Positions 2,321 through 54,346 of a DNA stretch of 64,000 nt are shown here, piece by piece. Origin of the DNA: a virus. The stretch's first letter is position 1; every line of letters starts with the position of its first letter. Under the pieces are notes generated by a model. It was not told the DNA's origin, made no database searches, and worked only from the letters and a program-made list of their open reading frames with translations. The DNA is taken from positions 9,209 through 73,208 of the IMG/VR virus record IMGVR_UViG_3300038393_003172; one strand, 5' to 3'. Made by a program: the position numbers and the translations under genes.

Positions 2321-2336
2321 CAGTTTTCCTTCTTCC

Positions 2337-2420
2337 GTTGCATAAAACTGGCCGGCTGTCCCATAAAACCGGCCCGGAACTGCATAAAACCGGGCGCGCG
2401 TTGCATAAACACGGGCTTCC
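2337..2420. repeat. Four imperfect 21-bp tandem repeats upstream of rtcB
   Basis: CATAAA cores at 2341, 2362, 2383 and 2404, each followed by ACCGG-like sequence. Confidence 0.8.
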
Positions 2421-2444
2421 GTCCCGCGAATCAGCCCGGCTGTC

Positions 2445-4371: not shown

Positions 4372-4498
4372 TCCTCGTCGTCCTCGTCGGTCTTCAAGAA
4401 CAGCCACAGCACCAGCAGCGAAAGCGCTCCGACGAATAGCCAGTAGCCGGTCATGAACGAGCGGTGATCGCCGAAGCAGAGGCTGTAGTAGGTGTGGG

Positions 4499-38486: not shown

Positions 38487-38819
38487 TCAGGACAGCAGCC
38501 CATCGGCCGCCTGCGCTGCGTCAAGCGGCAGCACCTGCAGCGTCGGGTGGCGCTTGGCGGCCAGCAGCATGAGGGTCCAGCGGGCGTTGGTCATCGGGCG
38601 GTCGCCGCGCTCTATCTCGCCGATGGCCTGTGCGTCGGTCAGGCCGATCAAGTGGGCCGTCTGTTCAAGCGTCCAGCCCATCGCCAGCCGCAGCTCGCGC
38701 ACCTCCAGCCCGCTGGGTGTGGGCAGTTCGGGGAAGATTGCAAGCGGCGGTGCCTTCTTGGGGCCACGCTTCCCGGGCGTGCGCGGGGGTGCCGCCGCGG
38801 TCGTGGTTGCTGTGGACAT
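38487..38819 (-). CDS. XRE-HTH repressor (KorC/Aca-like), candidate binder of operator B
   Basis: PSGLEVRELRLAMGWTLEQTAHLIG...ERGDRPMTNARWTLML..KRHP; operator B in its own promoter. Confidence 0.8.
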   Translation of the reverse strand: MSTATTTAAAPPRTPGKRGPKKAPPLAIFPELPTPSGLEVRELRLAMGWTLEQTAHLIGLTDAQAIGEIERGDRPMTNARWTLMLLAAKRHPTLQVLPLDAAQAADGLLS

Positions 38820-41900: not shown

Positions 41901-42784
41901 TGAGAAGGTCGATGGCGGCGCGCGCCGTCAGGTGCTGCCGGATGCCGTCCACCGAGGCGGGGTCGCTGCCGTGCGTGGTGCTGCGGGCGATCAGCTTGGC
42001 GAGCCGGGCGTCTGCGGCTGCGCTGCTGCAGGTGGGGTCGCCAAACTCGGCCTCAACAAGCTGTCGGGCGTTGGCTGCCATGCCCTGCAGCAGCTTGCGC
42101 AGGTGCTCGTCCTGCTCGGCGCGCGTGATGTGCAGCACCGCCAGGTTGGAGATGTGCGAGGCGGTGCGGCTGGCGTCGGTGTTCATGTCAGGCTCCGGTG
42201 TGGAAGGTGCCCAGCAGCGCCAGCGCGGCACGGCCCCGCTTGGCGATGGCGTCGGCGTCGAAGTCGCCGTTGGGCTCGATGGCCCAGGAGGGCGGTTGCT
42301 GCTGCACCCCGTGGCCCGTTGACAACTCTGTGTGGGCCGTCGCCGCGCGCAGCGCATCGGACAGCGCCGGCACGGCATCCGCTATGCGGCACAGGCGCTT
42401 GAGCTCTGAGGTGGCCTTGGCGCGGCCTTGCACGGTGCCTTTCTCCAGAAGGGTCAGCAGGACGGGCAGCGTGCCCTCCCAAGTCATGCGCAGGTCGATG
42501 GTCTGCTGTGCGGGGGCGGGGGCCGGCGCAGGTGCCGGGATGGGCAGCCGGAACCCCGGGCGGCGCCAGCAGGTGGTCACGGCCTCGCCGCTGCAGTTCC
42601 GGGTGGCGCCTGACGGCATACGCTCGGGGGCGTCGATGCAGTAGCAGGCGGCGTCATAGGTGATGCCCTGGAAGTCGGCACGCAGGTTGTCCTCGGTATA
42701 GGCGGCCGACGCCAAGGAGCCGGTGCCGTAGAACAGGGCAAAGCCGGCGTGTGGCGTTTCGGGGGTGACGGCGGGCAGGGGCAT
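38902..42784 (-). CDS. Ten small hypothetical genes (38902-39162, 39190-39759, 39772-40185, 40202-40567, 40590-40820, 40866-41207, 41217-41618, 41630-41833, 41848-42186, 42188-42784)
   Basis: Head-to-tail minus-strand ORFs, most with GGAG/AGGA RBS; no recognisable family. Confidence 0.65.
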
Positions 42785-42851
42785 GTCGGGTGCTCCGTGG
42801 TTAGGCGGGGAACGGGGGGAGCCCGGTGCGGGGCTCCCCTTGAGCGGTGCG

Positions 42852-44261
42852 TCAGGCGGTCTTCTTCGCGCCGCGCTTCGCGGGCACCTTCACCGGGGCC
42901 GCTTCAGCGGCAGGCGCTGCGGCGGCACCCTTGCGCGCCTTCGTGCTGCTGCTGCGCGCGGCCTTGGCAACGGCCTGCTGCACTGCCTGCGCCACCTCCG
43001 GGGTGGGGGCCTGCTCGGGCTGCGCGGCATCCTCGGCCGCGAGCTGCACCGGCTCGGCGCTGACGGCCTGCACCGGGGCCTGTTCCTCGGCCGCGCCAGC
43101 CGTCGCCAGCTCAGGCACGGGGGCCTCCACCGTGGCCTGCTCCGGGGCCGGCTCGGCGGCAGCCGCAGCGGCAGCCAAGTTCAGCGTCACGGCAACCGCC
43201 GAGGGCGCCGTCTCCGACACGCTGGCGCCAGCCTTCGCGCACATCTCGCGCAGCGCCTTCCAGGCGTTCAGCTTGATCGCCTCGCCAGAGCCAAACCAGG
43301 CGCTGTCCAGTCGAGTGCTGTTCGTCTTGCGGCGCTCGTGGTCAACGAACTCGGTCACGCTGTTGAGCAGCGACCATGCGTTGCCCTTGCCGCACAGGTT
43401 GGCGCCGATCAGCTTGCCGTCGAACAGCTCCATCACCCGCTTGTAAGCCTTGCTGCGGCGCACATCGGGCAGCGCCTTACCAGGGGGCAGCGACTGTGAG
43501 GACAGCAGCACGTCCGCCACCAGCGCGTCGGCCTGCGCCTCGGTCACGTCCACCTGCGCCATCAGCCGGGCCTCGACAAGCCAGCGGTCCCAGGCGTTCA
43601 CCACGATCCCCAGGCGCTGGCGCACCTCGTCGGCCTTGAACTTCGTCATGTGCGGCACCCGCACACACTGCACGACAGGCCCTTCCGTGGTGTCCCGCTC
43701 GGTCTGCCTGCTTCCGTTCGCCATGGATGCGCCTGCAGCCATCGTCAGCGTGTTGTTGCACACCACGCGCACCGCGGTGAACTTGGCCGTGGTGGACATG
43801 GAGCCGTCGAAGCTCGTAGCGAGCAGCACATAGGGGCGCACCTGATCGTGGCCCACCACCGGGGCACCGTCGTTCACCCGCGCCAGCCCCCAGATGCGCT
43901 TGCCGTCCAGCAGCGAGCCGGCGGTTTCCAGCGTGAAGCCGCCGGCCTCGGCCAGCTTTCCGAAGAAGTCCAGCACCTCGCCCGGCTGGACCACCTTGTA
44001 GCGGCTGCCCACGATGCCCAGCTCCGCGCCGGTATCGCTGCGCACCAGCGCGTGGCCGCCGCTGACAGGGTGCAGGGGGCTGTCCTCCCCGCGCTGGAAC
44101 ATCAGCGCGGCGCGCTCCACGCTCCAGTCCAGCCCCGCCTCGCGGCGCCAGGTTTCGAGGTCGGCGCCAGCCGACAGGCGCTGGCCCAGGCCGTGCCACG
44201 GGGTTTCACCCACGAAGGCGATTGCGTCACGGCCGGTGGTGTTGTCGATCAGGTGAGCCAT
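42852..44261 (-). CDS. DUF932 family phage/plasmid protein with Ala/Glu/Pro-rich tail
   Basis: GETPWHGLG, AGLDW.V, VRSDTG..LG.VG.RYKVVQP, ETAG.L..GKRIW.LA, S.DGS, RVVC.NTL, TEFVDH, WFG.G. Confidence 0.9.
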   Translation of the reverse strand: MAHLIDNTTGRDAIAFVGETPWHGLGQRLSAGADLETWRREAGLDWSVERAALMFQRGEDSPLHPVSGGHALVRSDTGAELGIVGSRYKVVQPGEVLDFFGKLAEAGGFTLETAGSLLDGKRIWGLARVNDGAPVVGHDQVRPYVLLATSFDGSMSTTAKFTAVRVVCNNTLTMAAGASMANGSRQTERDTTEGPVVQCVRVPHMTKFKADEVRQRLGIVVNAWDRWLVEARLMAQVDVTEAQADALVADVLLSSQSLPPGKALPDVRRSKAYKRVMELFDGKLIGANLCGKGNAWSLLNSVTEFVDHERRKTNSTRLDSAWFGSGEAIKLNAWKALREMCAKAGASVSETAPSAVAVTLNLAAAAAAAEPAPEQATVEAPVPELATAGAAEEQAPVQAVSAEPVQLAAEDAAQPEQAPTPEVAQAVQQAVAKAARSSSTKARKGAAAAPAAEAAPVKVPAKRGAKKTA

Positions 44262-44336
44262 TTGTATCTCCAGAGCGCCCGCGTGGGGCAGGTTGAGGGT
44301 CCAATTGGGTAGCGCCTTATTGCGCCGCCGTGAGGT

Positions 44337-44366
44337 AAATTTAGGTGTTGCGCCCAATGGTTGCAA
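44337..44366 (-). promoter_or_regulatory. Promoter with operator B
   Basis: TTGCAA-17bp-TAAATT; TTAGGTGTTGCGCCCAA at 44341-44357. Confidence 0.8.
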
Positions 44367-44398
44367 GGTAATTCATCATTCCTTGCCCCCCTGTTTGG

Positions 44399-44413
44399 GT
44401 AGCGCCGCGCTAC
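44399..44413. promoter_or_regulatory. Operator A
   Basis: Perfect GTAGCGCCGCGCTAC. Confidence 0.8.
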
Positions 44414-44431
44414 ATGCAGCGCACAGAAAAA

Positions 44432-46117
44432 CTAGGCGGCGCGCTGCGCAGCCAGCAGGGCAACGGACACGCTGGTGCCAGCGAAGGCGTTGTCGTGCTG
44501 GCGCGACCATTCGTGCTGCAGCCCCGGCAACACGTCCTTGCCGCGCATGCCTGCAGGCAGCACGGCCACAAGGCGGCCCTTGGGTGCGAGCAGTTGTGAC
44601 GCGGCCTCGATGTGCGCCTGCGCGCGGCCCTGGCTGAAGGGCGGGTTCATCACGATGCGGTCGAACGTGCGGCCCTGCTGGCGCATGGCCTCGGCCCACT
44701 GCAGGAAGTCGGCCTCATGCACTTCCGTAAATCCCTTGGCCTTCAGGATGGTGCAGTGCAGGGGGCTGATTTCCACGCACGTCAGCCGCTCGCGCGGCAG
44801 GTGCTCGGCGATGCCGCCGTGGCCCGCGCTGGGCTCCAGCACGGTGTGGCCTTCGCCGATCTGTGCCATCTCGACGGCCTGCTGCGCCAGCGCCTCGGGC
44901 GTCGGGTAGAACTGGTGGGCCTGCTGGTCCGGGATGCAGCCGCTGGAGACGATCTCAGCCAGCACATCGGCCGGGCAGTAGTCGAACTCAAAGGCGTCCG
45001 GGTCCTTGCCCCGCTGCGTGCCGCCGATGGCCTGCAGCACCGCGCGCGCCTGCTGGCGCACATGCTTGTCGGTGCTGGTGCCGTGCGGGTAGTACTTCAG
45101 CACGCGCGTGTTGTGCAGGCGGTGCCAGCGCTCCGGGTAGCCCCCCGGGTTCGTGCGCTCATGCACCGGCTCGGACGCTTCCAGCAGGCCCAGCACCGCG
45201 AAGGGCAGCGGGCGGCCCATCATCACGAATTCCTTGTGGGGCTTCTTGGGCTTGGTGCGGAACTCGCTCGGTATGGCTGCGGGGTGCAGGTAGGCCAGCA
45301 CCTGATTGAGCCGCACGGCCATGTCGGGATGCACCTCCAGATGACCGTTGCCGTTCAGGTACACCCGCAGGCGCAGCGCGCCGCCATCCAGCGTCAGCCA
45401 CTTGCCAGGCTGGCGCTTCTGTGCGTTCTCCACGATCTTGTTGGTCGCATAGTGCGGCGGTTCGTCCCGCCCCATGAAGCGCGCGATCACCACACGCAGG
45501 TCGTTGATGAGCCCGCACCTGCCGCCATAGCTGCCCCATTCGTTGAGCACGTTGGTCAGGATCATTCGCTTGAAGAACCCCTCGGGCCTGTTCGTGACGT
45601 GCTCCCGGGACAGCCCTTGGAAGATGCCGTCCACGCGCTCCGCGAAGAACCGCTCCCGCGAGTGCAGCAGCTCCGCGATGGTAGACAGCACGGATTCACG
45701 CTCGAAGGCCGGCGTGGCGTGCGTCCTGATGGCCTCGTGCCATTCGTCCCGGCGTGCCTTGGGCATGTGGTTGAGCACGTCCGTCAGGCTGATGGCCTCC
45801 TGCCAGAAGTAGGCGTTGAGCGCTGCCATGGCGCCAGCGGGGGCGAACAGCTCCTTCACCGTGGCGCTGATGCTGTGGCGCCGGTCCTTGTCGGTGTTGC
45901 CGTCCACGAAGTAGCTGAACACGCCCCCCAGCTCCCCCTCCATGGTTTCGGCCAGCCGAACGATGCGCAGGCGCGCGGCCTCGTACCGGCCGAACAGGGA
46001 ATCCAGTGCCCCCGTGGGTGCTGGGGCGAAGAACTGCGGCGCGTCGTCATCGACCACCTCGCAATGGGCTGGCGCTGCTGCAGCGGCCACGTCGAAATCC
46101 AGCGTGTCTTGTGTCAT
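44432..46117 (-). CDS. DUF4942-type SAM-dependent DNA methyltransferase
   Basis: LS.EHVTN.P.GF.KRMI, H.EVHPDMA.RLN, QFYPTP, LEPSAG.G, MNPPF. Confidence 0.88.
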   Translation of the reverse strand: MTQDTLDFDVAAAAAPAHCEVVDDDAPQFFAPAPTGALDSLFGRYEAARLRIVRLAETMEGELGGVFSYFVDGNTDKDRRHSISATVKELFAPAGAMAALNAYFWQEAISLTDVLNHMPKARRDEWHEAIRTHATPAFERESVLSTIAELLHSRERFFAERVDGIFQGLSREHVTNRPEGFFKRMILTNVLNEWGSYGGRCGLINDLRVVIARFMGRDEPPHYATNKIVENAQKRQPGKWLTLDGGALRLRVYLNGNGHLEVHPDMAVRLNQVLAYLHPAAIPSEFRTKPKKPHKEFVMMGRPLPFAVLGLLEASEPVHERTNPGGYPERWHRLHNTRVLKYYPHGTSTDKHVRQQARAVLQAIGGTQRGKDPDAFEFDYCPADVLAEIVSSGCIPDQQAHQFYPTPEALAQQAVEMAQIGEGHTVLEPSAGHGGIAEHLPRERLTCVEISPLHCTILKAKGFTEVHEADFLQWAEAMRQQGRTFDRIVMNPPFSQGRAQAHIEAASQLLAPKGRLVAVLPAGMRGKDVLPGLQHEWSRQHDNAFAGTSVSVALLAAQRAA

Positions 46118-46156
46118 GGTCAGGGCTCCTGTCGTTGGTAGGTGTGCAGGGGAAGG

Positions 46157-46828
46157 TCAGGCAGCGAGGGGCACGGCAGGTGCAGCGGTGCCAGCCGCGC
46201 GCGTCACTGCAGCCTGTGCCTCGGGCGGGAGGTCGGCCACGGGCACGCAGTCGCCGGTCTGGTCGTAGAAGTAGAGCTCCATCTGCCCCACGTCCGCGCC
46301 TGCCGCATAGCCCAGCGGCTGCAGCACCTCGGACAGCCGCGCCGCGGTGCCCAGCAGGTCCAGTTCCTCGCGCACGTTCTCCACCACCTGGTCAAAGTCG
46401 TCCTCGCGGTTCCTCTGCACCATGTCCACGGCCTTGCCCGTGGCTGCCTGCAGCGCGGCGGCATCGTCGGCCGCAGCAGGGTGGAGGGGCTGGCGCAGCC
46501 GAATGTCGAAGTACTCGGCCAGCGTCACGGTCGGCGTGTTGGTGGCCGTGTCGGCCAGCGTGAAGAACCCGGGCATGTCGTAGAAGCGCCGGGCGCGCTG
46601 CAGCACCGGCTCCGCGTCGACGCCAGCCAGCACGGGCAGCTTGGCCTCATGCCTGCCCGTGACCATCAGCACGCCGCTCGCGGGGTCGTACACGGCAGCA
46701 GTGATTTCCTCGCTGGGCATCCAGCCTTGCACCTCGGCGGTCAGGTCGTGGAAGGGGGCGCTGCAGTGCGCCAGCGCGAACGAGGCGGTGGGGCAATCGG
46801 CAAGCGTGAAGTCGGCCTTTTTCGACAT
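46157..46828 (-). CDS. Acidic hypothetical protein
   Basis: MSKKADF start after CAGGAG. Confidence 0.7.
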   Translation of the reverse strand: MSKKADFTLADCPTASFALAHCSAPFHDLTAEVQGWMPSEEITAAVYDPASGVLMVTGRHEAKLPVLAGVDAEPVLQRARRFYDMPGFFTLADTATNTPTVTLAEYFDIRLRQPLHPAAADDAAALQAATGKAVDMVQRNREDDFDQVVENVREELDLLGTAARLSEVLQPLGYAAGADVGQMELYFYDQTGDCVPVADLPPEAQAAVTRAAGTAAPAVPLAA

Positions 46829-46885
46829 GGTGTGCTCCTGTGCCAGCAGGCGGGTTGCGGGTTTGGTTCGTGCTGGCATGTCGTG

Positions 46886-46989
46886 ACATTAGGCGTGACA
46901 CCAAAATGATTGAATCAGAAACACGGATTTCTTACCCCCTCATCGCGGGATGCGTTGTCGTTGAATCTTTTTGGTGTAGCACCTAATGT
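46886..46989. promoter_or_regulatory. Back-to-back promoters, each with operator B
   Basis: Minus: TTCAAT-17bp-TAATGT with site 46889-46905. Plus: TTGAAT(46961)-17bp-TAATGT(46984) with site 46970-46986. Confidence 0.8.
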
Positions 46990-47032
46990 TGTCGCATGCA
47001 AACGCGCAACGCAACCTGAAAGGAGCGACGGC

Positions 47033-47860
47033 ATGCAGGTCAAATTGATCGTGGGCGCGACCCACGCCTATGTGTGCATCACGAAGGAAAACGGCGGGTC
47101 GCTGGACTGGCGCCTGGACGGCGGGTGCGGCCCCGTGGCCGACCTGCGGCGCCAGATCGAGCGCGAGCGCGCAGACATCGCGCGCCGCGAGGCGCGGCTC
47201 GCCACGCTGGCCGAGGCCGCCGCGGTGCTGGAACTCAGCGGCCATCGGTGAGGGTGCAGCCATGCAAGCCCCTGACACCAAGCCCGGCGCCTACTTCGTC
47301 AGCGTGCAGGACGGTGACCGCTTCGCTGCCGCCCTCGGCCCGTTCGTGGACGACCACGCGGCTGCGCTGGCGCAGATCGAGGCCGTGCGCGCGCTGGCGC
47401 AGCGGCTGCAGCCCCGCGCCGCGTTCTACGCCTTCGGCACCTGCCGCCTGGACCACGACCACCCGCAGGCGCAGCGGCCCGGCACGCTGAACGACTACTT
47501 CCCGGCGCTGGCGCTGCCAAGCCGTGCCGCCTGGGTGCAGCAGCAGGGAGCAGCCGCGTGAACGCGCGCGCTGTGTACCGGGCCGTCATGCGGTGCTACC
47601 GCATCGCGCGGCGCGACCCGATGAACGTGGCAGGGTTCGTGGCCGCCACCGGCGCTGTGCGCGAGCTGACGGGCGTTTGGGACGTGCCCATGCCCCCCAC
47701 GCCGCAGCAGCGCGCCGGGTGGGAACGGCCGCCGCGCTCGCGCTTCGTGCCTGCCGACTTCGGAGGCCCCGAGCGCGAGGTGCTGACGCAGCCGGGCCGC
47801 CTGTGCGTGTGGCGGTCCATGACGCTGTTCTGCAGGCGCACGCGCGCCGCCCCCCGCTGA
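47033..47860 (+). CDS. Three small hypothetical genes (47033-47251, 47262-47561, 47558-47860)
   Basis: AAGGAG RBS after the plus-strand promoter; coupled ORFs. Confidence 0.65.
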
Positions 47861-47975
47861 CGCCTGCGGCTGCCTGCCGCAGCACCCGCCCGGCCAGCGC
47901 CGGGCGTTGCCGTTTGTGCGCCTGGCTGCCCGGTGCCTGCGCACCTGCAGCGCCAGCGCGCGGCGCCAATGCGAA

Positions 47976-47995
47976 CGGGGGCCGAAGCCCCCCGA
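47976..47995. terminator. Hairpin between convergent operons
   Basis: CGGGGGC-CGAA-GCCCCC(C)G. Confidence 0.5.
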
Positions 47996-48018
47996 GGTGT
48001 TGTGTGTGCGCGGCTCGG

Positions 48019-48285
48019 TCAGGGAGCCGCGAGGTGCTCGTAGAGCTCCGGGTGGCGCCGCTGCATTTCGTCGGTGGCGATCTGCAGCGCCTGGGCCTCG
48101 TCTGCGGGCAGGCTGCGCACATAGTCGCCCTCGTACCGGAGGGTCAGGCGTCCGTTGCGCACCCGCACGGTCAGGAACCCGTCGCCATCGGCGCACCATG
48201 CGCGCGCCTGCGGGTAGAAGGTCCAGACGATTGCGCCGGCGCGTTGCGTGCGCAGCGCAGCGGGCGGGGCAGAGGGGGCTGGCAT
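48019..48285 (-). CDS. Array gene, hypothetical
   Basis: Preceded by variant motif CCCTGCTACCCGCACAGGAG. Confidence 0.6.
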   Translation of the reverse strand: MPAPSAPPAALRTQRAGAIVWTFYPQARAWCADGDGFLTVRVRNGRLTLRYEGDYVRSLPADEAQALQIATDEMQRRHPELYEHLAAP

Positions 48286-48329
48286 GACTGGCTCCTGTGC
48301 GGGTAGCAGGGAAACGGGGGATGGCTCCA

Positions 48330-48977
48330 TCACCACAGGTGGCAGTTGTCGCCATAGTCGCCGTCCTCCAGCGCCTGCACGCTGGGCATCAGTTCCACGA
48401 CGGACTTGTCGGGCTCATCAATGCTCTGCGCCCACACCAGAGCGACCTTCCCGTTGGGCAGGTACACCCGCACGTAAGGCCCACCGCCGCGGTCCTCGTC
48501 GTACTCGACCCGGATGGGGGGCGCCTCCTGCGCCTGCGTTGGCGCGGCTGCAGGTGGGGCCGCAGGTGCTGGCGCTGGGGCAGGTGCTGGCGCAGCGAAG
48601 CAGGCGAGGGCCGTGCGCCGGGCAGCACTGAAGCTGCCGTAGGCGTTGCCCAGCAGCGCCAGTGCCGCGTCCTGCGTGATGGCCTCGCTGATGTTCTCGA
48701 TGCCCGCGGGACCGCCGCTCCAGCGCGCGCGGTTGCCCTCCAGCGCCATCACCAACTGCTCGCGCGCTTCGTCGTCGGTCTTGGTGGGGTCGCTGGCCTG
48801 CGCGCGCAGCACGTCACGGGTGGCTTCCTCCAGCGCGCCGAGCGCCGCGAGCAGTTGCGCGCGCGCCTCGCACTGGCGCTGTCGCGCTGCCTGGTGCTGC
48901 TGCCGCACCGCAGCCAGCGCCGCGGGGTGCGGCTGCGCCGGCGTTTCCGTGGCAGGGGGGGAGATCACGTTGCTCAT
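48330..48977 (-). CDS. Array gene, LPNGK-domain paralog 3
   Basis: PYVRVYLPNGKVALVW. Confidence 0.7.
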   Translation of the reverse strand: MSNVISPPATETPAQPHPAALAAVRQQHQAARQRQCEARAQLLAALGALEEATRDVLRAQASDPTKTDDEAREQLVMALEGNRARWSGGPAGIENISEAITQDAALALLGNAYGSFSAARRTALACFAAPAPAPAPAPAAPPAAAPTQAQEAPPIRVEYDEDRGGGPYVRVYLPNGKVALVWAQSIDEPDKSVVELMPSVQALEDGDYGDNCHLW

Positions 48978-49020
48978 GTGGGGCTCCTTGGGGGTGTGCG
49001 TGAAAGGGGGGTGAGGGGCG

Positions 49021-49338
49021 TCAGATGCGGGGCGGCATCTGCGCCAGCACCAGCGTGAAGGCGGCGTTCCACAGCGCGGTTTCGGCGTCGTGCTCCGCTT
49101 CGCTGCGCCGGCCTTCCTCAACGTCGCTCGGCAGCACCGGCTCGCGCCCGTGCAGGTCTTCGAACGCGGCAGCCATGAGCATGTTCGTGTCCAGCGGCGC
49201 CTCTGCGGTGCCGGCCAGCACCTGCGCCAGCACATCGGGCAGCAGGTACTCGCGCAGGAGCTGCACGTAGCGCCCGGCCAGTTCCAGCGGGGTGCAGAGG
49301 GGGGCGACGGGGGCGGGGGCAAGGGTCAGGGCTTCCAT
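49021..49338 (-). CDS. Array gene, acidic hypothetical
   Basis: D.NM.MAAAF and LWNAAF; preceded by the motif. Confidence 0.7.
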   Translation of the reverse strand: MEALTLAPAPVAPLCTPLELAGRYVQLLREYLLPDVLAQVLAGTAEAPLDTNMLMAAAFEDLHGREPVLPSDVEEGRRSEAEHDAETALWNAAFTLVLAQMPPRI

Positions 49339-49371
49339 GTGCGGCTCCGGGTAGGCGGGAAACGGGGGGGC

Positions 49372-49785
49372 TCAGAACGCGTTGCGCCACATGCGGCGGT
49401 CGGCCTCGACGCAGGCGAGCGTGTCGTACAGGTTCGCCAGCCGCTGCTCGGCACGGTGCAGGGGAACGCCGGCCTCAAGCCGCGCATAGGCTGCCTTCAG
49501 TCGGCGCGCACTGAATGCCTGCTCAACGCGCCGGATGCGCCGATACATCAGCGCCTCGGCGCACTCCCAGGGTGCGGTGCGCTGCAGCCGGGCGAGCAGC
49601 CCCTGCTCGTGCTCCCGGTTCTGCCGCAGGTATTCGCCGACGCTGCGCCGTTCCTCGCGGCGGTTGCGCCCGTAGAACAGGGGCTCCTTCGGCTGCAGCG
49701 GCGCACCGGGCTTGCGCCGCTGCTGGCGCTGCACGGCACGGGCGATGTTCTGGCGACGGCGGATCAGGGGGGTGATGGCGGTCAT
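49372..49785 (-). CDS. Array gene, Arg-rich hypothetical
   Basis: GAGGA RBS; MTAITPLIRRR. Confidence 0.6.
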   Translation of the reverse strand: MTAITPLIRRRQNIARAVQRQQRRKPGAPLQPKEPLFYGRNRREERRSVGEYLRQNREHEQGLLARLQRTAPWECAEALMYRRIRRVEQAFSARRLKAAYARLEAGVPLHRAEQRLANLYDTLACVEADRRMWRNAF

Positions 49786-49795
49786 GGCTGCGTCC

Positions 49796-50155
49796 TCATC
49801 CCTGCGCTTCGTTGGCCTGCTGCGCTGCACGCGCTGCCTGCTCCTGCATCAGCCGGTGCATCTGCAGCACACCGGGCAGGCGCCACTTGAGGAACTGCAG
49901 CGCCTGCTCCCGCAGGTCCTGCTCCTGCGCGTTGCGGGCGAGGCAGCGGGCCTCCCCCTGCCACGTTGCGCTGGCGCTGCTGGCGATGGTCACCAGATCC
50001 GCGCGCGCCGCCTGCTCATTCGGTGCGGCGCACACCGTGGCGATCAGCATGGCCTCGTTGGCGTCGTGCATGGCCTGCGCGGCGCACTCGAAGGCTTTCA
50101 GCGCGGCACGCTGGGCGTCCACGGCCTGCAGCCGGGCTTCGGTTTCGGGGGTCAT
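49796..50155 (-). CDS. Array gene, helical hypothetical
   Basis: Preceded by the motif and AAGGAG. Confidence 0.7.
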   Translation of the reverse strand: MTPETEARLQAVDAQRAALKAFECAAQAMHDANEAMLIATVCAAPNEQAARADLVTIASSASATWQGEARCLARNAQEQDLREQALQFLKWRLPGVLQMHRLMQEQAARAAQQANEAQG

Positions 50156-50197
50156 GGTCGTTGCTCCTTTGGGGGTAGGCGGGAAATGGGGCAGGGG

Positions 50198-50524
50198 TCA
50201 GAACGGGATGTCCTCGAAAGCTGGCAGCGGCAGTGCATCGGCCGCCTCCTGTGCGGCGCGCAGGGAGTCGGCGTCGTCCCACCAGCGGATCGGCGGCATC
50301 ACCTCCACCGTGTCCACGCCAGCGCGGCGCGAGGCCCACGCGATGGACGTGGCGCTGCACTCGTCCGTTGCGCAGGTGAGCACCACCAGGTCGTCGGTCT
50401 GCGCCAGCGCGCGCCGCGCCATGCAGACGGCCAGCGCGGCGGTTTCGTAGCAGTAGCCGTGGATCGGCTGGCTGATGAACGCGCCGTTGTCGTCAACCGG
50501 GTGGAAGGCGTGGATGGTGAACAT
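50198..50524 (-). CDS. Array gene ending in EDIPF
   Basis: Preceded by the motif; SSB-like C-terminal tetrapeptide. Confidence 0.7.
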   Translation of the reverse strand: MFTIHAFHPVDDNGAFISQPIHGYCYETAALAVCMARRALAQTDDLVVLTCATDECSATSIAWASRRAGVDTVEVMPPIRWWDDADSLRAAQEAADALPLPAFEDIPF

Positions 50525-50561
50525 GGCAGGTGCTCCGGGTAGGCGGGGAAGCGGGGTACGG

Positions 50562-50930
50562 TCAGTCGCGGGATTCGAGGAAACGGGCCACGTCGCGGCG
50601 CGTGCGCAGCTTCACGGGTCGGTATTCGGTGCGCTGGGGCAGGCCACCGCCGGTGACCAGCACCGGGTCCAGCGCCTGCACCGCACCGCAGGGCAGCAGC
50701 TCGCAGTCGTATCCGTTGCTGTGCAGCCACTGCAGCATTTCGTCCTGCTCGGCCGTGGCGCCTGCGGGCAGCACGAGGTCCAGCGCGAGGACGGTGCAGC
50801 GGTGGTAGGTGTCGCTCACCTGCTGCACAGCGTGTTCCGGGTCGGCTGCCTGCACGCGCGCGGTGCCGCAGGTGCCAGTGGGGTTGTCCCAGTCCTCGGG
50901 GAAGCAGTAGAGGGCGTCGTAGGCGGGCAT
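50562..50930 (-). CDS. Array gene, hypothetical
   Basis: Preceded by the motif. Confidence 0.7.
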   Translation of the reverse strand: MPAYDALYCFPEDWDNPTGTCGTARVQAADPEHAVQQVSDTYHRCTVLALDLVLPAGATAEQDEMLQWLHSNGYDCELLPCGAVQALDPVLVTGGGLPQRTEYRPVKLRTRRDVARFLESRD

Positions 50931-50961
50931 GGTGGTGCTCCGGGTAGGCGGGCAGGGAGGG

Positions 50962-51195
50962 TCAGTGCAGGTAGGGGGCAGCCGCAGCGTGGGCCTCGGT
51001 CAGCCGGTAGGCGGCAGCCAGCAGCGCGTCGTCGCTGCGCAGCAGCAGCGCGCACTCGCGGGCATGTTGTGAGGCCTCGCGGTGCGCCGGGCCACGCACG
51101 CAGTCGGGCACGTCAGCCAGCGCAGCGCGCACGCGCGCCAGCTCGGTGGTCAGGTGCTGGCGCAGGCCAGCAGCGGAGGCAGGGTTCAGCGTCAT
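50962..51195 (-). CDS. Array gene, hypothetical
   Basis: Preceded by the motif. Confidence 0.65.
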   Translation of the reverse strand: MTLNPASAAGLRQHLTTELARVRAALADVPDCVRGPAHREASQHARECALLLRSDDALLAAAYRLTEAHAAAAPYLH

Positions 51196-51228
51196 GGTGG
51201 TGCTCCTGTGGGTAGGCGGGCAGGGGTG

Positions 51229-51543
51229 TCAGGTGCGGTGTGCGCGTGGGCGGATGGCGTCGGCCACGCGCCGCGCGCGCAGCCACGGGTCCGTGTGGTA
51301 GGCGCGGCAGTAGCCCCGCTCCAGCGCATAGGCCCATGCAGCCTCGTGCGTTTCGAACTGCAGGCCGTCCGCGTCCAGCCGCTTGAAGCGCCCCTTGCCG
51401 CCCCACTGGTTCGTGAGGTCCGGGTACAGGCGCGCGACCTTCAGCGTGTGGACCGTGCCGCCCCCGTGATGCACGGAAACGCACACGGGGGGTTGGCTGG
51501 CGGTCACGGGCTCCTGGGTGCAGGTGAGGCGGCGGTTGGTCAT
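51229..51543 (-). CDS. Array gene, hypothetical
   Basis: Preceded by the motif; DG.QFET.EAA..YAL.RGY. Confidence 0.7.
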   Translation of the reverse strand: MTNRRLTCTQEPVTASQPPVCVSVHHGGGTVHTLKVARLYPDLTNQWGGKGRFKRLDADGLQFETHEAAWAYALERGYCRAYHTDPWLRARRVADAIRPRAHRT

Positions 51544-51571
51544 GGCTGGCTCCGGTGTGCGGGTAGGCGGG

Positions 51572-51898
51572 TCACAGCAGGCCGAGGCGCCGCGCGTGTG
51601 CGTGCAGCTTCTGGCGGGTGTTGGTCAGGTCAGCCGCTACGTGCCGGGCCTTGCCCTCCTGCACCAGCAGTTCGATCACCTCCAGCCGCAGGTCCGTGTC
51701 CGGGTCAACGACCGGGGGGGCGGCGTTCTGCACCCGGCGCAGGCGGTCGGCTTCCTCCTGTGCCTGCTGCGCCTGCCGCTGCGCGCGCTGCTCCGGGGTT
51801 TCCGGCGGCAGGGGGGGCATGGACAGCAGCTTCTGCACAACCCGCAGCAGGCGGGCATCGACGCTGGACAGCGGCAGCAGGGGCGGGGTGGCGGGCAT
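51572..51898 (-). CDS. Array gene, hypothetical
   Basis: Preceded by a variant motif. Confidence 0.65.
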   Translation of the reverse strand: MPATPPLLPLSSVDARLLRVVQKLLSMPPLPPETPEQRAQRQAQQAQEEADRLRRVQNAAPPVVDPDTDLRLEVIELLVQEGKARHVAADLTNTRQKLHAHARRLGLL

Positions 51899-51937
51899 GG
51901 CGGGGCTCCGGGGGGTGTGCGTACAGGGGGGCGGGTT

Positions 51938-52270
51938 TCAGAAGCGCACGTACTGCGCGCCGCTGTCGGTGGGGTCGGTGTCGGCGGTGGGCAGCAGCAC
52001 CACCGCGCACAGGTCGCCTTCCTCGGCCATGGCGTCCGGGTACACATGCAGCGCCTTTCCGCCCGGGAGGGTGATGTGCAGGTACGGGCAGGTCACATCG
52101 CCCTCCCGCTGCACCTGCACACCCGTGATGGGTTCGAAGGGCTCGGCATAGGCCATGTCCGCGCGCTGCTGCTGCCTGTACGCCTCCTCCTTCCAGCGGG
52201 CGGCTTCTTCGCGCGCCGCCTGCAGTTCGGCCAGCAGTTCATTCCGTTCGTGGTCAGGCATCAGTTCCAT
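51938..52270 (-). CDS. Array gene, LPNGK-domain paralog 2
   Basis: EPITGVQV...PYLHITLPGGKALHVYP; preceded by two motif copies. Confidence 0.7.
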   Translation of the reverse strand: MELMPDHERNELLAELQAAREEAARWKEEAYRQQQRADMAYAEPFEPITGVQVQREGDVTCPYLHITLPGGKALHVYPDAMAEEGDLCAVVLLPTADTDPTDSGAQYVRF

Positions 52271-52324
52271 GGCGGGCTCCGGTGTGCGGGTAGGCGGTGC
52301 GGGGGGGTAGGCGGGGGCAGCGGC

Positions 52325-52699
52325 TCACCACGCCTGCGAATGCGCAGCGGGGGTGCCGGATTCCATGGCGTCCACGCTGGCGTGCAGTTCGACCGCGCTG
52401 CTGGATTCGTCGTCCGCACTGCGCGGGTACACGCACAGCGCCTTCCCGTTGGGGAGGTAGATCACGAGGAAATCGCCGGCCCCCATATCGCTGCAGGTGT
52501 CCACCTGCACCCCCGGGATCGGTTCGCTGCGCTGCGGGTGCGCCTGCACCGGCTGCGGCTGGCGCAGTTCAGCGGGCACCGGCACACCTGCGCGGCTGGC
52601 TGCGGTCAGCACCGCCTGCTGTGCAGCGGCCAGATCGCGCAGCGCCTGCGCATAGGTTTCGACGGCCTGCAGGTGGGCACGGATGGCGGGGGTATTCAT
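52325..52699 (-). CDS. Array gene, LPNGK-domain paralog 1
   Basis: EPIPGVQV...FLVIYLPNGKALCVYP. Confidence 0.7.
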   Translation of the reverse strand: MNTPAIRAHLQAVETYAQALRDLAAAQQAVLTAASRAGVPVPAELRQPQPVQAHPQRSEPIPGVQVDTCSDMGAGDFLVIYLPNGKALCVYPRSADDESSSAVELHASVDAMESGTPAAHSQAW

Positions 52700-52729
52700 G
52701 GCGGGGGTTCCTGTGTGTGCGTGTAGGGG

Positions 52730-53227
52730 TCAGGCTGCGGCGTGGCAGGAGCGCACCGCGTCGTCCGCGCGCACCAGCAGCGGCAGCACCGCGTCGGCGC
52801 CGCAGCGGTCCAGGGCCTGCACGAAGCGGCGCACCCGGGCCAGCACCGCACGGGTGGGCAGGTGCCCGGTGCGTGCCGCTGCAGCGCCCTCCCGCGCCAT
52901 GCGCGCCAGTTCGTGCGCACCGGGCACAGGCAGCCGGGGCAGTTCGGCAGCAGCGGCGTCCAGCACGTCCAGCAGCGCGGCGTCCGGCTGCCCGGCTGCG
53001 GGGGCGGCAGGGGCAGGACGGGCCACGCGCCAGCCGGTGTCCGAGTCCAGCACCACGACCCGGGCGCCATCCAGCCCGCTGCGCTGCGCTGCTGCCTGCT
53101 GGGCAGCCTCCAGCGTGTCGAACGGCGGGGTGTGCATGTCGAACGCGGTCACCTGCACTGCGCCGCTAGGCGGCTGCTTGCGGGTGCGGCGGGCGGGGGC
53201 GGTGGATTGGTAGGCGATGCGGAACAT
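52730..53227 (-). CDS. Array gene, hypothetical
   Basis: MFRIAYQ start after the motif and CAGGAG. Confidence 0.65.
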   Translation of the reverse strand: MFRIAYQSTAPARRTRKQPPSGAVQVTAFDMHTPPFDTLEAAQQAAAQRSGLDGARVVVLDSDTGWRVARPAPAAPAAGQPDAALLDVLDAAAAELPRLPVPGAHELARMAREGAAAARTGHLPTRAVLARVRRFVQALDRCGADAVLPLLVRADDAVRSCHAAA

Positions 53228-53264
53228 GGCGGTTCTCCTGTGCGGGTAGGCGGGCGGGGGGTGT

Positions 53265-53666
53265 TCAGCGTGCGTTCGGCACGAACAGGGCAGCGAAGGC
53301 GGCGTCTGCGGGCAGGCCCAGCGCGCGCACCGTCTGCACCGCATCCAGCGGCGCGGCGTTCACCCGGGCAGGCACTGCCGCGACGGCCTGCGTCTGCGCA
53401 GCCGGCACGCCCAGCACCAGCACCACGGCAGCCAGCAGCGCCAGTGCAGCGGTCAGCAGCGCCTGCAGGAGGCCCCGCTGGGCACGGGCAGCAGCGGCAG
53501 CGTCCGCAGCCATGGCGTCAGCGCGCGCATCCCGGGCCTCCTGGCGCGTGCGGTACACGTCCACGGGGGCACCGTCCCGCACCAGCGTCCAGCCGATTTG
53601 CTGGCGCGTGGCACGGCCGGTTTGGGGATTCAGGGCATAGGCGCGCTTCACTTGGTAGGTGTGCAT
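53265..53666 (-). CDS. First array gene, membrane-anchored hypothetical
   Basis: MHTYQVKR start after GGAG; hydrophobic helix near the C-terminus. Confidence 0.65.
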   Translation of the reverse strand: MHTYQVKRAYALNPQTGRATRQQIGWTLVRDGAPVDVYRTRQEARDARADAMAADAAAAARAQRGLLQALLTAALALLAAVVLVLGVPAAQTQAVAAVPARVNAAPLDAVQTVRALGLPADAAFAALFVPNAR

Positions 53667-53754
53667 ATATGGCTCCGGTTGGCGCACGCACAGCACCGCG
53701 CGCGCGTGGTGCGCTGCGTTTGTGGCGGTGTCTTGTGTGCGGTGCATGGGTGAA

Positions 53755-53818
53755 ACATTAGGCGTAGAACCCAATAGTTGTAGCCCCGCATTCCTGGGTA
53801 TATGTAGCGCCGCGCTGG
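53755..53818 (-). promoter_or_regulatory. Array promoter with operator B and an adjacent operator A
   Basis: -10 TAATGT; TTAGGCGTAGAACCCAA at 53758-53774; GTAGCGCCGCGCTGG at 53804-53818. Confidence 0.75.
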
Positions 53819-53860
53819 CATATTAAGTGCCGCCCTTATATATGCGCCCGGTGCTGCTGA

Positions 53861-54346
53861 TATATATATGCGGCACCGGCTGCCCCGCCTGCCTGCACCT
53901 GCAGCGCTGCCCGGGGCTGCCTGCTGTAGCGCACACCTGCACCGGCTGCCCGGGTGCTGGCCACCTGCTGCCCGTGCTACCGCACGCATGCCCTGCCCGT
54001 GCCTGCCCGGGTGCCTGTGCTGCCCTGCCTGCTGCTGCCGCAGGTGTGCCCGGCTGCCTGCACTGCGCAGCTCCTGCACCGGCTGCACTCCTGCCCGCCT
54101 GCTCCTGCACTGCGCACCGGCTGCCCGTGCTGGTGCTGCCTGCCTGCGTGTGCCCTGCTGCGGCTGCCTGCTGCCCCGGGTGTGCCGTGCCTGCCCGGGT
54201 GTGTGCCTGCCTGCTGCCCGCCTGCTGGGGCGCGCAGCGCCCCGGGGCAGGCTGCACGGGTGCCCGGTGCCGGGTGTGCCGGTGCCTGCGCCCCTGCCCC
54301 CGCCCCGCTGCGCACGCGCGCCGCAGCTGCGGCCCCACACGGGCCG
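53861..54346. repeat. Low-complexity TGC/CTGCC-rich non-coding tract
   Basis: Built from CCTGC, TGCCC and GTGCC words; no AA, TT or GA on the plus strand by eye. Confidence 0.85.

What the first reader, a model, noticed from the sequence alone, without database searches (positions are those of the whole stretch)
48019..53666. Cassette-like array of small genes joined by a conserved CCCGCCTACCC-RBS element
Seen: 14 small co-oriented minus-strand ORFs. Most of the ~30-55 bp gaps follow the pattern TGA, C-rich stretch, CCCGCCTACCC, optional GCACA/GCACACC, GGAG, ATG. Eight exact 11-mers lie at 49349, 50173, 50537, 50942, 51210, 51561, 52305 and 53244. Near copies lie at 52288, 48301 and 42799, with looser versions near 46135, 49000, 51925 and 52720. 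I did not see the motif in the early or head operons, where genes overlap instead. It is not palindromic, not a sigma70 promoter and not an attC site. Inference: a standardised gene joint. It could be (a) microhomology letting the phage RecT/YqaJ pair swap, add or delete single genes, (b) an mRNA site for a processing nuclease or RNA-binding regulator acting on all these RBSs, or (c) a translation-enhancing leader. Small cargo of unknown function next to DUF932 and a DUF4942 methyltransferase suggests anti-defence or host-takeover genes.
Basis: partly seen in the sequence, partly recalled or inferred. Interest (0 to 1): 0.85.

Follow-up and report, generated by a model that had tools for sequence, protein, structure and literature searches.

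The report
Repeated leader motif before phage genes
A soil prophage places the same 11-letter C-rich word just ahead of the ribosome-binding site of most genes in a 14-gene operon of unknown function, much like the unexplained start-associated sequences of some other phages.

Summary
CCCGCCTACCC occurs 8 times exactly, all on the minus strand between 49349 and 53254 (0.03 expected), and nowhere else on the 73-kb provirus contig. Each copy lies in an intercistronic gap, 0-7 nt 5' of a GGAG Shine-Dalgarno. Similarity between joints runs from the core to the ATG and stops there.

The joints contain no promoter, terminator, inverted repeat or Rfam family. The word is not common in candidate host clades. 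A profile of the joint finds one weak match in 160 TerL-related phage loci, and none of 302 sampled genomes has more than one match. It shows no 16S rRNA complementarity and no predicted gain in RBS accessibility.

The cargo genes are near-ORFans, so "anti-defence" is unsupported.

Best reading: a start-associated leader module. The closest published cases are the SAS of cluster K mycobacteriophages and the 26-bp repeat of Citrobacter phage Mordin, both of unknown function. The mechanism remains inferred. No relatives carrying the array were reachable, so the recombination idea is untested. This scan had already noted the same stretch.

The parts
48019..53666 (-). Array of 14 small genes g1-g14 (77-215 aa). 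It is the promoter-proximal part of a long minus-strand operon, divergent from the packaging genes.
   Evidence: 14 of 14 start with ATG and end with TGA; GC3 is 0.81-0.91. No Pfam or PHROG family for any.
53244..53254 (-). Core copy before g2 (exact), followed by GCACA and then GGAG.
   Evidence: core-to-SD 5 nt, SD-to-ATG 7 nt.
52288..52315 (-). Two core copies before g4: exact at 52305-52315 and 1 mismatch at 52288-52298. The second is followed by GCACACC and then GGAG.
   Evidence: In isolation this joint folds worse than 199 of 200 shuffles.
51561..51571 (-). Core copy before g6 (exact), starting directly after g5's TGA.
   Evidence: The joint is 97% identical over 30 nt to the g4 joint (family D20).
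51210..51220 (-). Core copy before g7 (exact).
   Evidence: The joint is 86% identical over 28 nt to the g8 joint (family D2).
50942..50952 (-). Core copy before g8 (exact), abutting GGAG.
50537..50547 (-). Core copy before g9 (exact), abutting GGAG.
   Evidence: In the local fold the 11-mer is the loop of a weak 5-bp stem between GCUUC and GGAGC, no better than shuffles.
50173..50183 (-). Core copy before g10 (exact).
49349..49359 (-). Core copy before g12 (exact), abutting GGAG.
48301..48311 (-). Core copy before g14 (2 mismatches, CCCTGCTACCC), followed by GCACA and then GGAG.
   Evidence: Profile score 31.8 bits, but this joint is a training sequence of the model.
52700..52729 (-). Degenerate joint before g3: C-tract, CGCACAC, then AGGA; no 11-mer.
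51899..51937 (-). Degenerate joint before g5.
   Evidence: family D17: 72% over 36 nt with the g13 joint.
48978..49020 (-). Degenerate joint before g13.
49786..49795 (-). 10-nt gap before g11, the only array joint without the element. An SD-like GAGGA overlaps g10's stop.
46829..46866 (-). Leader of g15 (46157-46828), the first gene after the next promoter-like island. It is a degenerate copy reading CCCGCCTGCTGGCACAGGAG.
46115..46152 (-). Leader of the DUF4942 methyltransferase gene, a weak joint-like match.
   Evidence: 10.7 bits, E=0.05; not a training sequence.
42799..42809 (-). Core copy (1 mismatch, CCCGCCTAACC) before the gene at 42188-42784, directly after a 9-bp hairpin at 42816-42839.
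   Evidence: hairpin z = -1.9.
47977..47992 (-). GC hairpin with a UUCG loop, 26 nt after g14's stop. This is the likely 3' end of the array's transcription unit; it has no U-tract.
   Evidence: One search gives the fold. The terminator scan does not call it.
53667..53900 (-). Upstream region with AT-rich islands. It is presumed to hold the array's promoter and operators, and it contains no copy of the motif.
   Evidence: Read. No motif match within 1 mismatch and no profile match. No consensus sigma70 site is called. Earlier first-reader notes place operators here (untested).

Best explanation
The 11-mer is the core of a start-associated leader module. The module is about 25-40 nt long and reads: C-rich tract, CCCGCCTACCC, optional GCACA(CC), GGAG, 6-8 nt, ATG. 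It belongs to the 5' side of each cistron and travels with it.

My best guess is that it acts on the polycistronic mRNA. It would give every cistron of this ORFan operon the same translation-initiation region, and probably the same recognition site for one trans-acting factor (an RNA-binding regulator or processing nuclease, phage- or host-encoded). The whole set could then be switched together.

What is shown: the anatomy, the specificity to this operon, and the absence of promoter, terminator or hairpin features.

What is inferred: that the element is read as RNA rather than DNA, that a trans factor exists, and that it affects expression.

A side effect follows whatever the primary function. 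The joints are direct repeats that could let a RecT-type annealing protein delete or duplicate whole cassettes while always regenerating an intact ribosome-binding site.
For: Strand and placement. All 8 exact copies and the 3 contextual near-copies are co-directional with the genes.

Anchoring. The core sits 0-7 nt from the SD, and the SD sits 6-8 nt from the ATG. The distance from the upstream stop varies from 0 to 26 nt, and is 42 nt at x198.

Boundaries. The conserved block is sharp: 1.12 bits per column against 0.38 and 0.29 in the flanks. Similarity between whole joints ends at the ATG: g4/g6 fall from 0.90 to 0.50 and g7/g8 from 0.85 to 0.55 (one search gives 97% over 30 nt and 86% over 28 nt).

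Unrelated downstream genes. Apart from the paralogs g3, g4 and g13, the downstream proteins show no clear similarity to each other; a few weak pairs (E about 0.001-0.01) lie in alanine-rich sequence.

Specificity on the contig. This is the only leader family on the 73-kb contig. All 25 profile matches lie on the minus strand between 39.7 and 53.3 kb.

Absence elsewhere. In 160 TerL-related loci there are 0 exact copies and 1 weak profile match. The word is rarer than its reversed control in 81 genomes (161 against 833) and in 5 further genomes (11 against 46) of candidate host clades. None of 302 sampled genomes has more than one profile match.

Rarity of the architecture. At most 3 leaders share a 9-mer in any of 295 comparison loci, against 8 here. 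The same test finds 12 in the published Mordin case.

Other features. The joints contain no promoter, terminator, inverted repeat or Rfam family. They are 63% C and 12% G outside the SD, so the SD is the only purine run.

Published parallels. SAS and the Mordin repeat have the same layout.
Against: No direct evidence shows that the element is read as RNA.

The two computable translation models failed. There is no complementarity to 16S rRNA beyond shuffled motifs in 3 candidate-clade rRNAs. Predicted SD accessibility is not better with native leaders (0.010) than with coding-like leaders (0.023) or shuffled leaders (0.008).

No candidate trans factor was identified.

The host is unknown, so the host-frequency tests used stand-in clades.

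No relative with the array was available, so conservation over evolutionary time, the strongest argument made for SAS, is not shown here.

The closest paralogs, g3 and g13, carry the most degenerate joints. The exact 11-mer is therefore not indispensable for every cistron.

A DNA-level reader would produce the same anatomy.
Confidence: 0.45

Rival explanations
1. A DNA site for a sequence-specific, probably monomeric, phage DNA-binding protein that blocks or modulates transcription elongation through the operon. This would be a stoperator-like roadblock that keeps the array silent in the lysogen.
For: The site is asymmetric, lies in short intergenic gaps, and has a single orientation relative to transcription. 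These are the properties described for stoperators. The record is a provirus. At least one HTH regulator is encoded in the same operon, at 38487-38819.
Against: Stoperator systems use the same site as an operator in the early promoter and spread it genome-wide. Here no copy lies in the promoter region 53667-53900, and none lies outside 39.7-53.3 kb. The tight anchoring to the SD and ATG, and the conservation running through the SD to the ATG, are not needed for a roadblock. Earlier notes assign other, palindromic operators to this phage (untested).
Confidence: 0.17
2. A recombination joint is the selected function. The repeated joints would serve as short homologies for the phage RecT-type annealing protein, so that single cassettes are gained, lost or swapped. 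This is functionally like the PeSL elements of T4-type phages.
For: RecT is encoded on the contig. Joint pairs of 28-30 nt at 86-97% identity flank unrelated genes. Similarity stops exactly at the ATG. The cargo genes are ORFans, as in PeSL-rich regions. One cassette holds two genes (g10-g11) with no joint between them.
Against: No variant with a different cassette content was seen, and no relative was available. PeSL-type architecture (a promoter plus a stem-loop) is absent. Recombination alone does not explain the fixed position next to the SD, or why the 11-mer is better kept than its flanks. The three array genes searched have 0-2 homologs anywhere, so there is no sign of independently circulating cassettes.
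Confidence: 0.13
3. A relic of serial tandem duplication of one ancestral unit (leader plus gene). The coding parts diverged beyond recognition. The leader survives only because any RBS region is constrained and C-rich. It has no function beyond being an ordinary RBS.
For: g3, g4 and g13 are paralogs. The closest pair, g3 and g13, share the same degenerate joint type. Joint sub-families exist. The SD-to-ATG half of the profile matches generic GC-rich leaders in other genomes.
Against: Eight joints keep 11 of 11 identity while most downstream proteins show no clear similarity to each other. The block has sharp edges rather than a gradual decay. Other genes of the same contig, and 295 comparison loci, manage without any shared leader. 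Near-identical joints such as g4/g6 precede unrelated proteins.
Confidence: 0.12
4. A composition-driven signal rather than a sequence-specific one. The C-rich, G-poor joints would act as Rho loading (rut-like) sites that impose polarity. Alternatively, their G-rich complement would form G-quadruplexes on the template strand.
For: The joints are 63% C and 12% G outside the SD. Five of the 6 plus-strand G4-type motifs of the whole window lie in the array, and 3 of them overlap core copies. The properties of rut sites are recalled, not from a call.
Against: Neither model needs, or explains, an exactly conserved 11-mer that includes its TA centre. The joints are 28-54 nt, shorter than the roughly 70-80 nt I recall for rut sites. 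Several joints (g4, g6, g7) give no canonical G4 hit in the scan.
Confidence: 0.05

Closest known systems
Start-associated sequences (SAS) of cluster K mycobacteriophages (Pope et al. 2011, PMC3203893, passages read; PMC11373665 and PMC12699233, passages read)
   Same: Both are short asymmetric repeats in about 10-19 copies and in one orientation. Both sit just upstream of start codons and are confined to non-structural genes. Both are biased to ATG starts, associated with unusually wide intergenic gaps, precede genes of different families, and are rare in the host. In both cases the function is unknown.
   Different: The SAS (GGGATAGGAGCCC) contains the SD itself and lies 3-9 nt from the start codon. 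Here the conserved core is a separate C-rich word 0-7 nt 5' of the SD, 13-22 nt from the ATG, with an unrelated sequence. The hosts differ (Actinobacteria; here probably a high-GC proteobacterium). SAS are conserved across many sequenced phages, whereas this element is known from one provirus. No ESAS-like inverted repeat or promoter accompanies it.
26-bp SAS-like repeat of Citrobacter phage Mordin, Felix O1-like (PMC4611695, passage read; record KT363872 read)
   Same: This is a Gram-negative phage. It has an array of small hypothetical genes separated by gaps, with a repeated word abutting GGAG and a fixed spacer to the ATG. The authors report 8 copies; my test finds 12 leaders sharing the 9-mer. 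The role is unknown.
   Different: Its repeat is AT-rich with an unrelated sequence. The repeat unit extends further upstream. That phage is virulent and encodes RegB-like and Pnk RNA enzymes, which I did not find here.
Stoperators of cluster A mycobacteriophages (PMC9283540, passages read)
   Same: Both are asymmetric sites in short intergenic spaces, strictly co-oriented with transcription, in a temperate phage.
   Different: Stoperators occur genome-wide in more than 20 copies and double as promoter operators. This element is confined to about 11 kb, is absent from the promoter region, and is anchored to the SD and ATG.
PeSL elements of T4-type phages (PMC4122927, passages read; PMC2839356 seen only as a search listing)
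   Same: Both are conserved intergenic elements between ORFan genes in a plastic region. Both are possible substrates for cassette-level recombination.
   Different: PeSLs are composites of a terminator stem-loop and a sigma70-like promoter. Neither part is present here.
T4 RegB / RegA control of early mRNAs at their ribosome-binding sites (recalled, not from a call)
   Same: It is a precedent for one phage factor acting on the RBS regions of many early cistrons. RegB cleaves within GGAG, and GGAG is the SD of 12 of the 13 array genes that follow g1.
   Different: No RegB or RegA homolog was identified here. Their targets are not defined by an upstream C-rich word.

Membership tests
SAS (cluster K mycobacteriophages) | Short asymmetric repeat present in about 11-19 copies per genome | tested here: met
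   8 exact copies and 3 contextual near-copies of the 11-mer. 14 joints score 19-35 bits with the profile built from them.
SAS (cluster K mycobacteriophages) | One orientation, co-directional with the downstream genes | tested here: met
   All exact copies are on the minus strand, as are the genes.
SAS (cluster K mycobacteriophages) | The repeat contains the SD core and lies 3-9 nt from the start codon | tested here: not met
   The core lies 0-7 nt 5' of GGAG and 13-22 nt from the ATG. It does not include the SD.
SAS (cluster K mycobacteriophages) | Match to the consensus GGGATAGGAGCCC within 2 mismatches (criterion quoted) | tested here: not met
   The sequence of the core is unrelated.
SAS (cluster K mycobacteriophages) | Restricted to non-structural genes, with ATG-biased starts and wide gaps | tested here: met
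   There is none in the packaging or head genes, nor elsewhere on the contig. 14 of 14 genes start with ATG. Gaps are 28-54 nt.
SAS (cluster K mycobacteriophages) | Rare or absent in the host genome | tested here: inconclusive
   The host is unknown. In stand-in clades the word is rarer than its reversed control (161 against 833 in 81 genomes; 11 against 46 in 5 genomes). No genome of 302 has more than 1 profile match.
SAS (cluster K mycobacteriophages) | Conserved across related phages, in front of genes of different families | not testable with these tools
   No relative with the array could be fetched. Within this genome the element precedes unrelated genes.
Stoperator system (cluster A mycobacteriophages) | The same asymmetric site serves as operator in the early promoter and occurs genome-wide in more than 20 copies | tested here: not met
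   There is no copy in 53667-53900 and none outside 39.7-53.3 kb.
Stoperator system (cluster A mycobacteriophages) | Site orientation correlates with the direction of transcription | tested here: met
Stoperator system (cluster A mycobacteriophages) | A cognate monomeric repressor with HTH plus stoperator domain | not tested
   No search for such a repressor was made.
PeSL (T4-type phages) | Composite of a terminator stem-loop and a sigma70-like early promoter | tested here: not met
   There are 0 promoter-like sites and no terminator-like site in any joint. No local inverted repeats lie in the joints. The joints fold weakly or not at all.
PeSL (T4-type phages) | Indel and replacement breakpoints between close relatives fall at the element | not testable with these tools
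   No close relative's DNA was reachable.
Integron attC cassette array | Imperfect inverted-repeat recombination site between cassettes | tested here: not met
   The joints hold no inverted repeat and are G-poor, so they cannot self-pair. The size range and structure of attC sites are recalled.

The most novel reading that the evidence does not exclude
The 11-mer is the recognition site of a dedicated trans-acting RNA-binding or RNA-processing factor that switches a whole operon of ORFan early genes after transcription. One candidate is the arginine-rich protein g11, the only array gene that lacks the joint. If so, this would be a proteobacterial counterpart of the unexplained SAS elements. 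Here the recognised word is physically separate from the Shine-Dalgarno, so the two can be mutated independently. That would make the open question of what SAS-type elements do directly testable.
Probability: 0.15. Interest if true: 0.7.

Novelty: new variant of a known kind. Interest (0 to 1): 0.45.

Why it matters
Start-associated repeats were described in 2011, and the papers I read from 2024 and 2025 still call their role unknown. This is a further, independent case, with an unrelated sequence, in a different phage lineage and probably a different host phylum.

It adds one useful property. The conserved word sits 0-7 nt away from the SD instead of overlapping it. Its conservation therefore cannot be explained by SD-anti-SD pairing, and core and SD can be altered separately in reporter constructs.

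If a trans factor reads it, that would be a compact way for a phage to co-regulate a set of fast-evolving accessory genes. If it mainly serves recombination, it would show how cassettes can be shuffled while always regenerating a working RBS.

The value is limited because the element is known from one metagenomic provirus with an unknown host and no accessible relatives.

Tried and rejected
Relatives by DNA.
- blastn of the array found no match in GenBank phages or in plasmids.
- Motif+SD pattern in IMG/VR: 115 or more single hits. None of the 115 fetched loci shows the joint architecture.
- 19-nt composite pattern: 0 hits in IMG/VR. In JGI metagenomes it gave 20 hits, all inside coding sequence.

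Relatives by protein.
- g13 has 2 homologs (75% and 59% identity), but none in genome, viral or metagenome contigs.
- The DUF4942 methyltransferase has no relative in IMG/VR by tblastn. Its best phage hits (about 50%) are not syntenic.
- g1-g14 have no tblastn hit in the 160 TerL loci.
- L253 has two near-copies that do not form a repeated joint.
- G048 has three copies that lie in paralogous coding sequence.

Sequencing runs. Eight DNA metagenome runs (soil and rhizosphere) hold the stretch, and no RNA holder is listed. Laying four of the runs showed only the same sequence. The run with a 0.35 share is the same phage at low depth. The joints reported at 80% likeness have sides of 20-32 nt, and I treat them as noise.

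Host. ARAGORN's tRNA-Ser at 8766-8849 looks like a false positive in coding-like sequence, so I did not use it. The host remains unknown. The best TerL loci are from Roseomonas and Neoroseomonas (66-68%), and others are from Burkholderiales. The portal is at most 49% identical to alphaproteobacterial phages. DUF932 is closest to Cupriavidus plasmids (44%).

Mechanisms considered and set aside.
- 16S pairing.
- Leader-driven SD accessibility.
- Promoter or terminator.
- A known RNA family.
- An antisense partner at 21303.
- An RfaH ops-like site: the G-rich strand is the template strand here, so the orientation is wrong (ops recalled, no call).
- A Chi-like site: the word is not over-represented in stand-in clades, and intergenic anchoring would be unexplained.
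- A weak hairpin that puts the core in the loop and pairs (G)YUUCC with the SD. It is predicted for g9 and x198, but the g9 joint folds no better than shuffles (z = 0.60); at x198 the whole-stretch z of -1.9 mostly reflects the upstream 9-bp hairpin.

Cargo. No Pfam or PHROG family for any of the 14 genes, and no usable atlas hit for the 2 tested, g13 and g11. I did not run structure prediction, complex prediction or PADLOC.

Their site tables could refine the comparison of spacing.

Full report
WHAT IS THERE

The window is bases 9209-73208 of a 73,208-bp IMG/VR provirus record. CCCGCCTACCC occurs 8 times exactly, always on the minus strand, between 49349 and 53254. Dinucleotide-preserving shuffles give 0.03 on average, and 0 of 100 reach 8. 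Within one mismatch there are 12 matches against 1.70 expected. Within two mismatches the count is 42 against 34.25, which is no longer above chance. There is no further exact copy on the whole contig.

On the minus strand I read 14 genes, g1-g14, of 77-215 aa. All 14 start with ATG, all end with TGA, and GC3 is 0.81-0.91.

Twelve of the 13 gaps between them are 28-54 nt long; the g10-g11 gap is 10 nt. Eight gaps hold an exact core, and the g4 gap holds a second copy with 1 mismatch. The g14 gap holds a 2-mismatch copy. Three gaps (g3, g5, g13) hold a degenerate version: a C-tract, then CGCACAC, then the SD. The short g11 gap has none.

Outside the array there are three more leaders of this kind. 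A 1-mismatch copy precedes the gene at 42188-42784. The leader of g15 (46157-46828) is a degenerate copy. The methyltransferase leader matches weakly.

GEOMETRY

The core lies 0, 0, 0, 2, 3, 5, 5, 5, 7 or 7 nt 5' of GGAG. The SD lies 6-8 nt from the ATG. The distance from the upstream stop varies from 0 to 26 nt, and is 42 nt at x198. The element is therefore tied to the start of the downstream gene, not to the end of the upstream one.

The 11-mer is a sharply bounded block: 1.12 bits per column against 0.38 in the 5' flank and 0.29 in the 3' flank.

Whole joints fall into sub-families. g4 and g6 are 97% identical over 30 nt. g7 and g8 are 86% identical over 28 nt. g5 and g13 are 72% identical over 36 nt. 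Similarity drops to background right after the ATG. Over 78 pairs, leader identity is 0.59 against 0.48 for the first ten codons. g4/g6 fall from 0.90 to 0.50 and g7/g8 from 0.85 to 0.55.

Only g3, g4 and g13 are recognisable paralogs. The closest pair, g3 and g13, share the degenerate joint type.

Outside the SD the joints are 63% C and 12% G, against 34.5% G in the coding sequence. The SD is thus the only purine run in each joint.

WHAT IT IS NOT

- No sigma70-like promoter (0 found) and no terminator-like site lies in any joint.
- There are no local inverted repeats in the joints.
- The joints fold weakly or not at all. The g4 joint folds worse than 199 of 200 shuffles.
- No Rfam family matches 42000-54200 at E up to 1.

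HOW SPECIFIC IT IS

It is the only leader family on the contig. I built a sequence-only profile of 14 joints. On the window it gives 25 matches, all on the minus strand between 39.7 and 53.3 kb. Fourteen of these are its own training joints, at 19-35 bits.

TerL (57539-59206) has many relatives at 66-92% identity. I fetched 160 TerL-anchored loci with up to 10 kb of flank, 2.32 Mb in total. Identity to the window's TerL was 51-68% in genome contigs and 50-69% in viral contigs. In these loci:
- there are 0 exact cores and 31 matches within 1 mismatch;
- there is 1 weak profile match, E=0.16;
- g1-g14 have no tblastn hit;
- only 1 of 160 loci has any 9-mer shared by the leaders of 3 or more SD+start sites, and that word is a terminator T-tract.

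Among 135 unrelated loci, 2 reach 3 shared leaders and none exceeds 3. The window reaches 8.

As a positive control, the same test finds 12 leaders sharing one word in Citrobacter phage Mordin. It is nearly blind to the SAS of mycobacteriophage Anaya, because that element overlaps the SD rather than lying 5' of it.

HOST-SIDE TESTS

The host could not be identified. I used stand-ins drawn from the clades of the best TerL loci: Roseomonas, Neoroseomonas, Reyranella, Variovorax and Noviherbaspirillum.
- The 11-mer occurs 11 times in 5 genomes, against 46 for the reversed control word.
- It occurs 161 times in 81 genomes of one family, against 833 for the control, with at most 13 per genome.
- The profile gives one weak match each in 7 of 302 sampled genomes, and never two in one genome. 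Only the best-ranked candidates of each genome were scored there, so I write "not found in those searched".
- The core, and an 18-nt extension of it, are not more complementary to three 16S rRNAs than shuffled versions are.

TRANSLATION-ACCESSIBILITY TEST

Predicted probability that the SD is unpaired averages 0.010 for the 12 native joints. It averages 0.023 when the pre-SD leader is replaced by coding-like sequence (Wilcoxon p=0.016, in the wrong direction for an enhancer). It averages 0.008 when the leader is shuffled. Thermodynamic prediction thus gives no support to the idea that the leader opens up the RBS.

CARGO AND CONTEXT

- None of the 14 proteins has a Pfam or PHROG family.
- g13 has 2 homologs in 5.8 billion proteins.
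- g6 has none besides itself in the length range searched.
- g9 has 2 other matches in 1.84 billion representatives.
- The atlas gave no usable hit for g13 or g11.

The "anti-defence" reading therefore has no support beyond the neighbourhood.

Downstream on the same strand lie the DUF4942+methyltransferase gene and the DUF932 gene. An HTH regulator lies at 38487-38819. To the right, on the plus strand, lie an N6/N4 methyltransferase, TerL, portal and capsid. RecT and a C5 methyltransferase lie far to the left.

COMPARISON WITH WHAT IS KNOWN

From passages of Pope et al. 2011, SAS are 13-bp asymmetric repeats present in 11-19 copies in one orientation. They lie within a few nt of start codons, are confined to non-structural genes, are biased to ATG, are associated with wide gaps, and are rare in the host. 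They precede genes of different families, and their function is unknown. Passages from 2024 and 2025 still call the role ill-defined.

A Genome Announcement on Citrobacter phage Mordin reports a 26-bp SAS-like repeat upstream of 8 hypothetical genes. Its record shows small genes with 14-bp repeats abutting the RBS.

In the library searched, 8 papers hold the term "start-associated sequence" (7 listed), and Mordin is the only one of those listed on a phage outside the mycobacteriophages. A search for "intergenic repeat" with "bacteriophage", "Shine-Dalgarno" and "start codon" gave one unrelated paper.

The present element shares the layout but fails two defining SAS features. It does not contain the SD, and its sequence is unrelated. 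I therefore file it as working like an SAS, not as a member of that family.

Stoperators share the asymmetry and the orientation. However, they are genome-wide and double as promoter operators, which is not the case here. PeSLs share the setting between ORFans, but they are promoter-plus-hairpin composites, and both parts are absent here.

VERDICT

The element is specific to one operon family of one phage.

The best-supported description is a start-associated leader module of unknown mechanism. I put about 0.45 on an RNA-level role in expression, 0.17 on a DNA-level roadblock site, 0.13 on recombination as the selected function, 0.12 on a duplication relic, and 0.05 on a purely compositional signal.

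The recombination consequence (precise cassette loss or gain between near-identical joints) is plausible as a by-product under any of these readings. It rests on recalled knowledge of how much homology annealing proteins need, not on a call.

Noticed in passing
window 48330-48977, 52325-52699, 51938-52270: g13, g3 and g4 share a C-terminal domain of about 60 aa with a conserved YLPNGK-type stretch. The two database homologs of g13 (75% and 59% identity) conserve it almost perfectly, while the N-terminal half varies.
   Followed up: partly
window 49372-49785: g11 has a strongly arginine-rich N-terminal half. It is the only array gene without the joint, being coupled to g10 by a 10-nt gap. Atlas model pLDDT is 0.69, with no structural match above TM 0.43.
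   Followed up: partly
window 48000-53700, plus strand: Five of the 6 canonical G-quadruplex-type motifs on the plus strand of the whole 64-kb window lie inside the array. Three of them overlap core copies. This follows from the C-rich joints.
   Followed up: partly
window 50525-50570 and 42785-42860: In the g9 and x198 joints, the pyrimidine stretch just 5' of the core (GCUUC or GUUCC) is predicted to pair with GGAGC. That puts the 11-12-nt core in the loop and the SD in the stem. The stems are weak, and the g9 joint folds no better than shuffles (z = 0.60).
   Followed up: partly
window 1091-2521: An RtcB RNA ligase gene lies on this contig. The SAS-bearing mycobacteriophage Anaya also encodes an RtcB-like ligase (gp88). 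The SAS-like phage Mordin encodes a RegB-like endoribonuclease and a polynucleotide kinase. This may be coincidence, or a link between start-associated repeats and RNA cleavage and repair.
   Followed up: no
window about 53770, 46900, 44350, 38855 (minus strand): AT-rich islands containing CCTAAT(G/A)T-like words precede g1, g15, the DUF932 gene and the HTH gene. They are presumably the promoters of this block. Earlier first-reader notes describe operator repeats here.
   Followed up: no
window 47070-47860, plus strand: Two overlapping plus-strand ORFs (163 and 100 aa, no Pfam family) sit convergently between the array's terminal hairpin and the g15 promoter region.
   Followed up: partly
window 8766-8849: ARAGORN calls a tRNA-Ser(GCT) here, but the sequence looks like ordinary GC-rich coding sequence. 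It is probably a false positive.
   Followed up: partly
window 53265-53666: g1, the first gene of the array, has a long hydrophobic Ala/Leu/Val stretch (about residues 65-90) that looks like a membrane segment. Its leader lacks the core.
   Followed up: no
L107 (IMG/VR contig), reverse-strand positions about 880-940, 4420-4475, 5795-5850: An unrelated viral contig carries three copies of a different composite: an AT-rich promoter-like box, then a GC hairpin, then CCCCCATCA, then GGAG. This is closer to a PeSL-type element.
   Followed up: partly
window 47900-53900: Seven of the 8 listed DNA metagenome runs (soil and rhizosphere, coded studies) hold 99-100% of the sampled words, so a near-identical copy of this stretch is in them. 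The eighth holds 35%. Several of these runs may be the source samples.
   Followed up: partly
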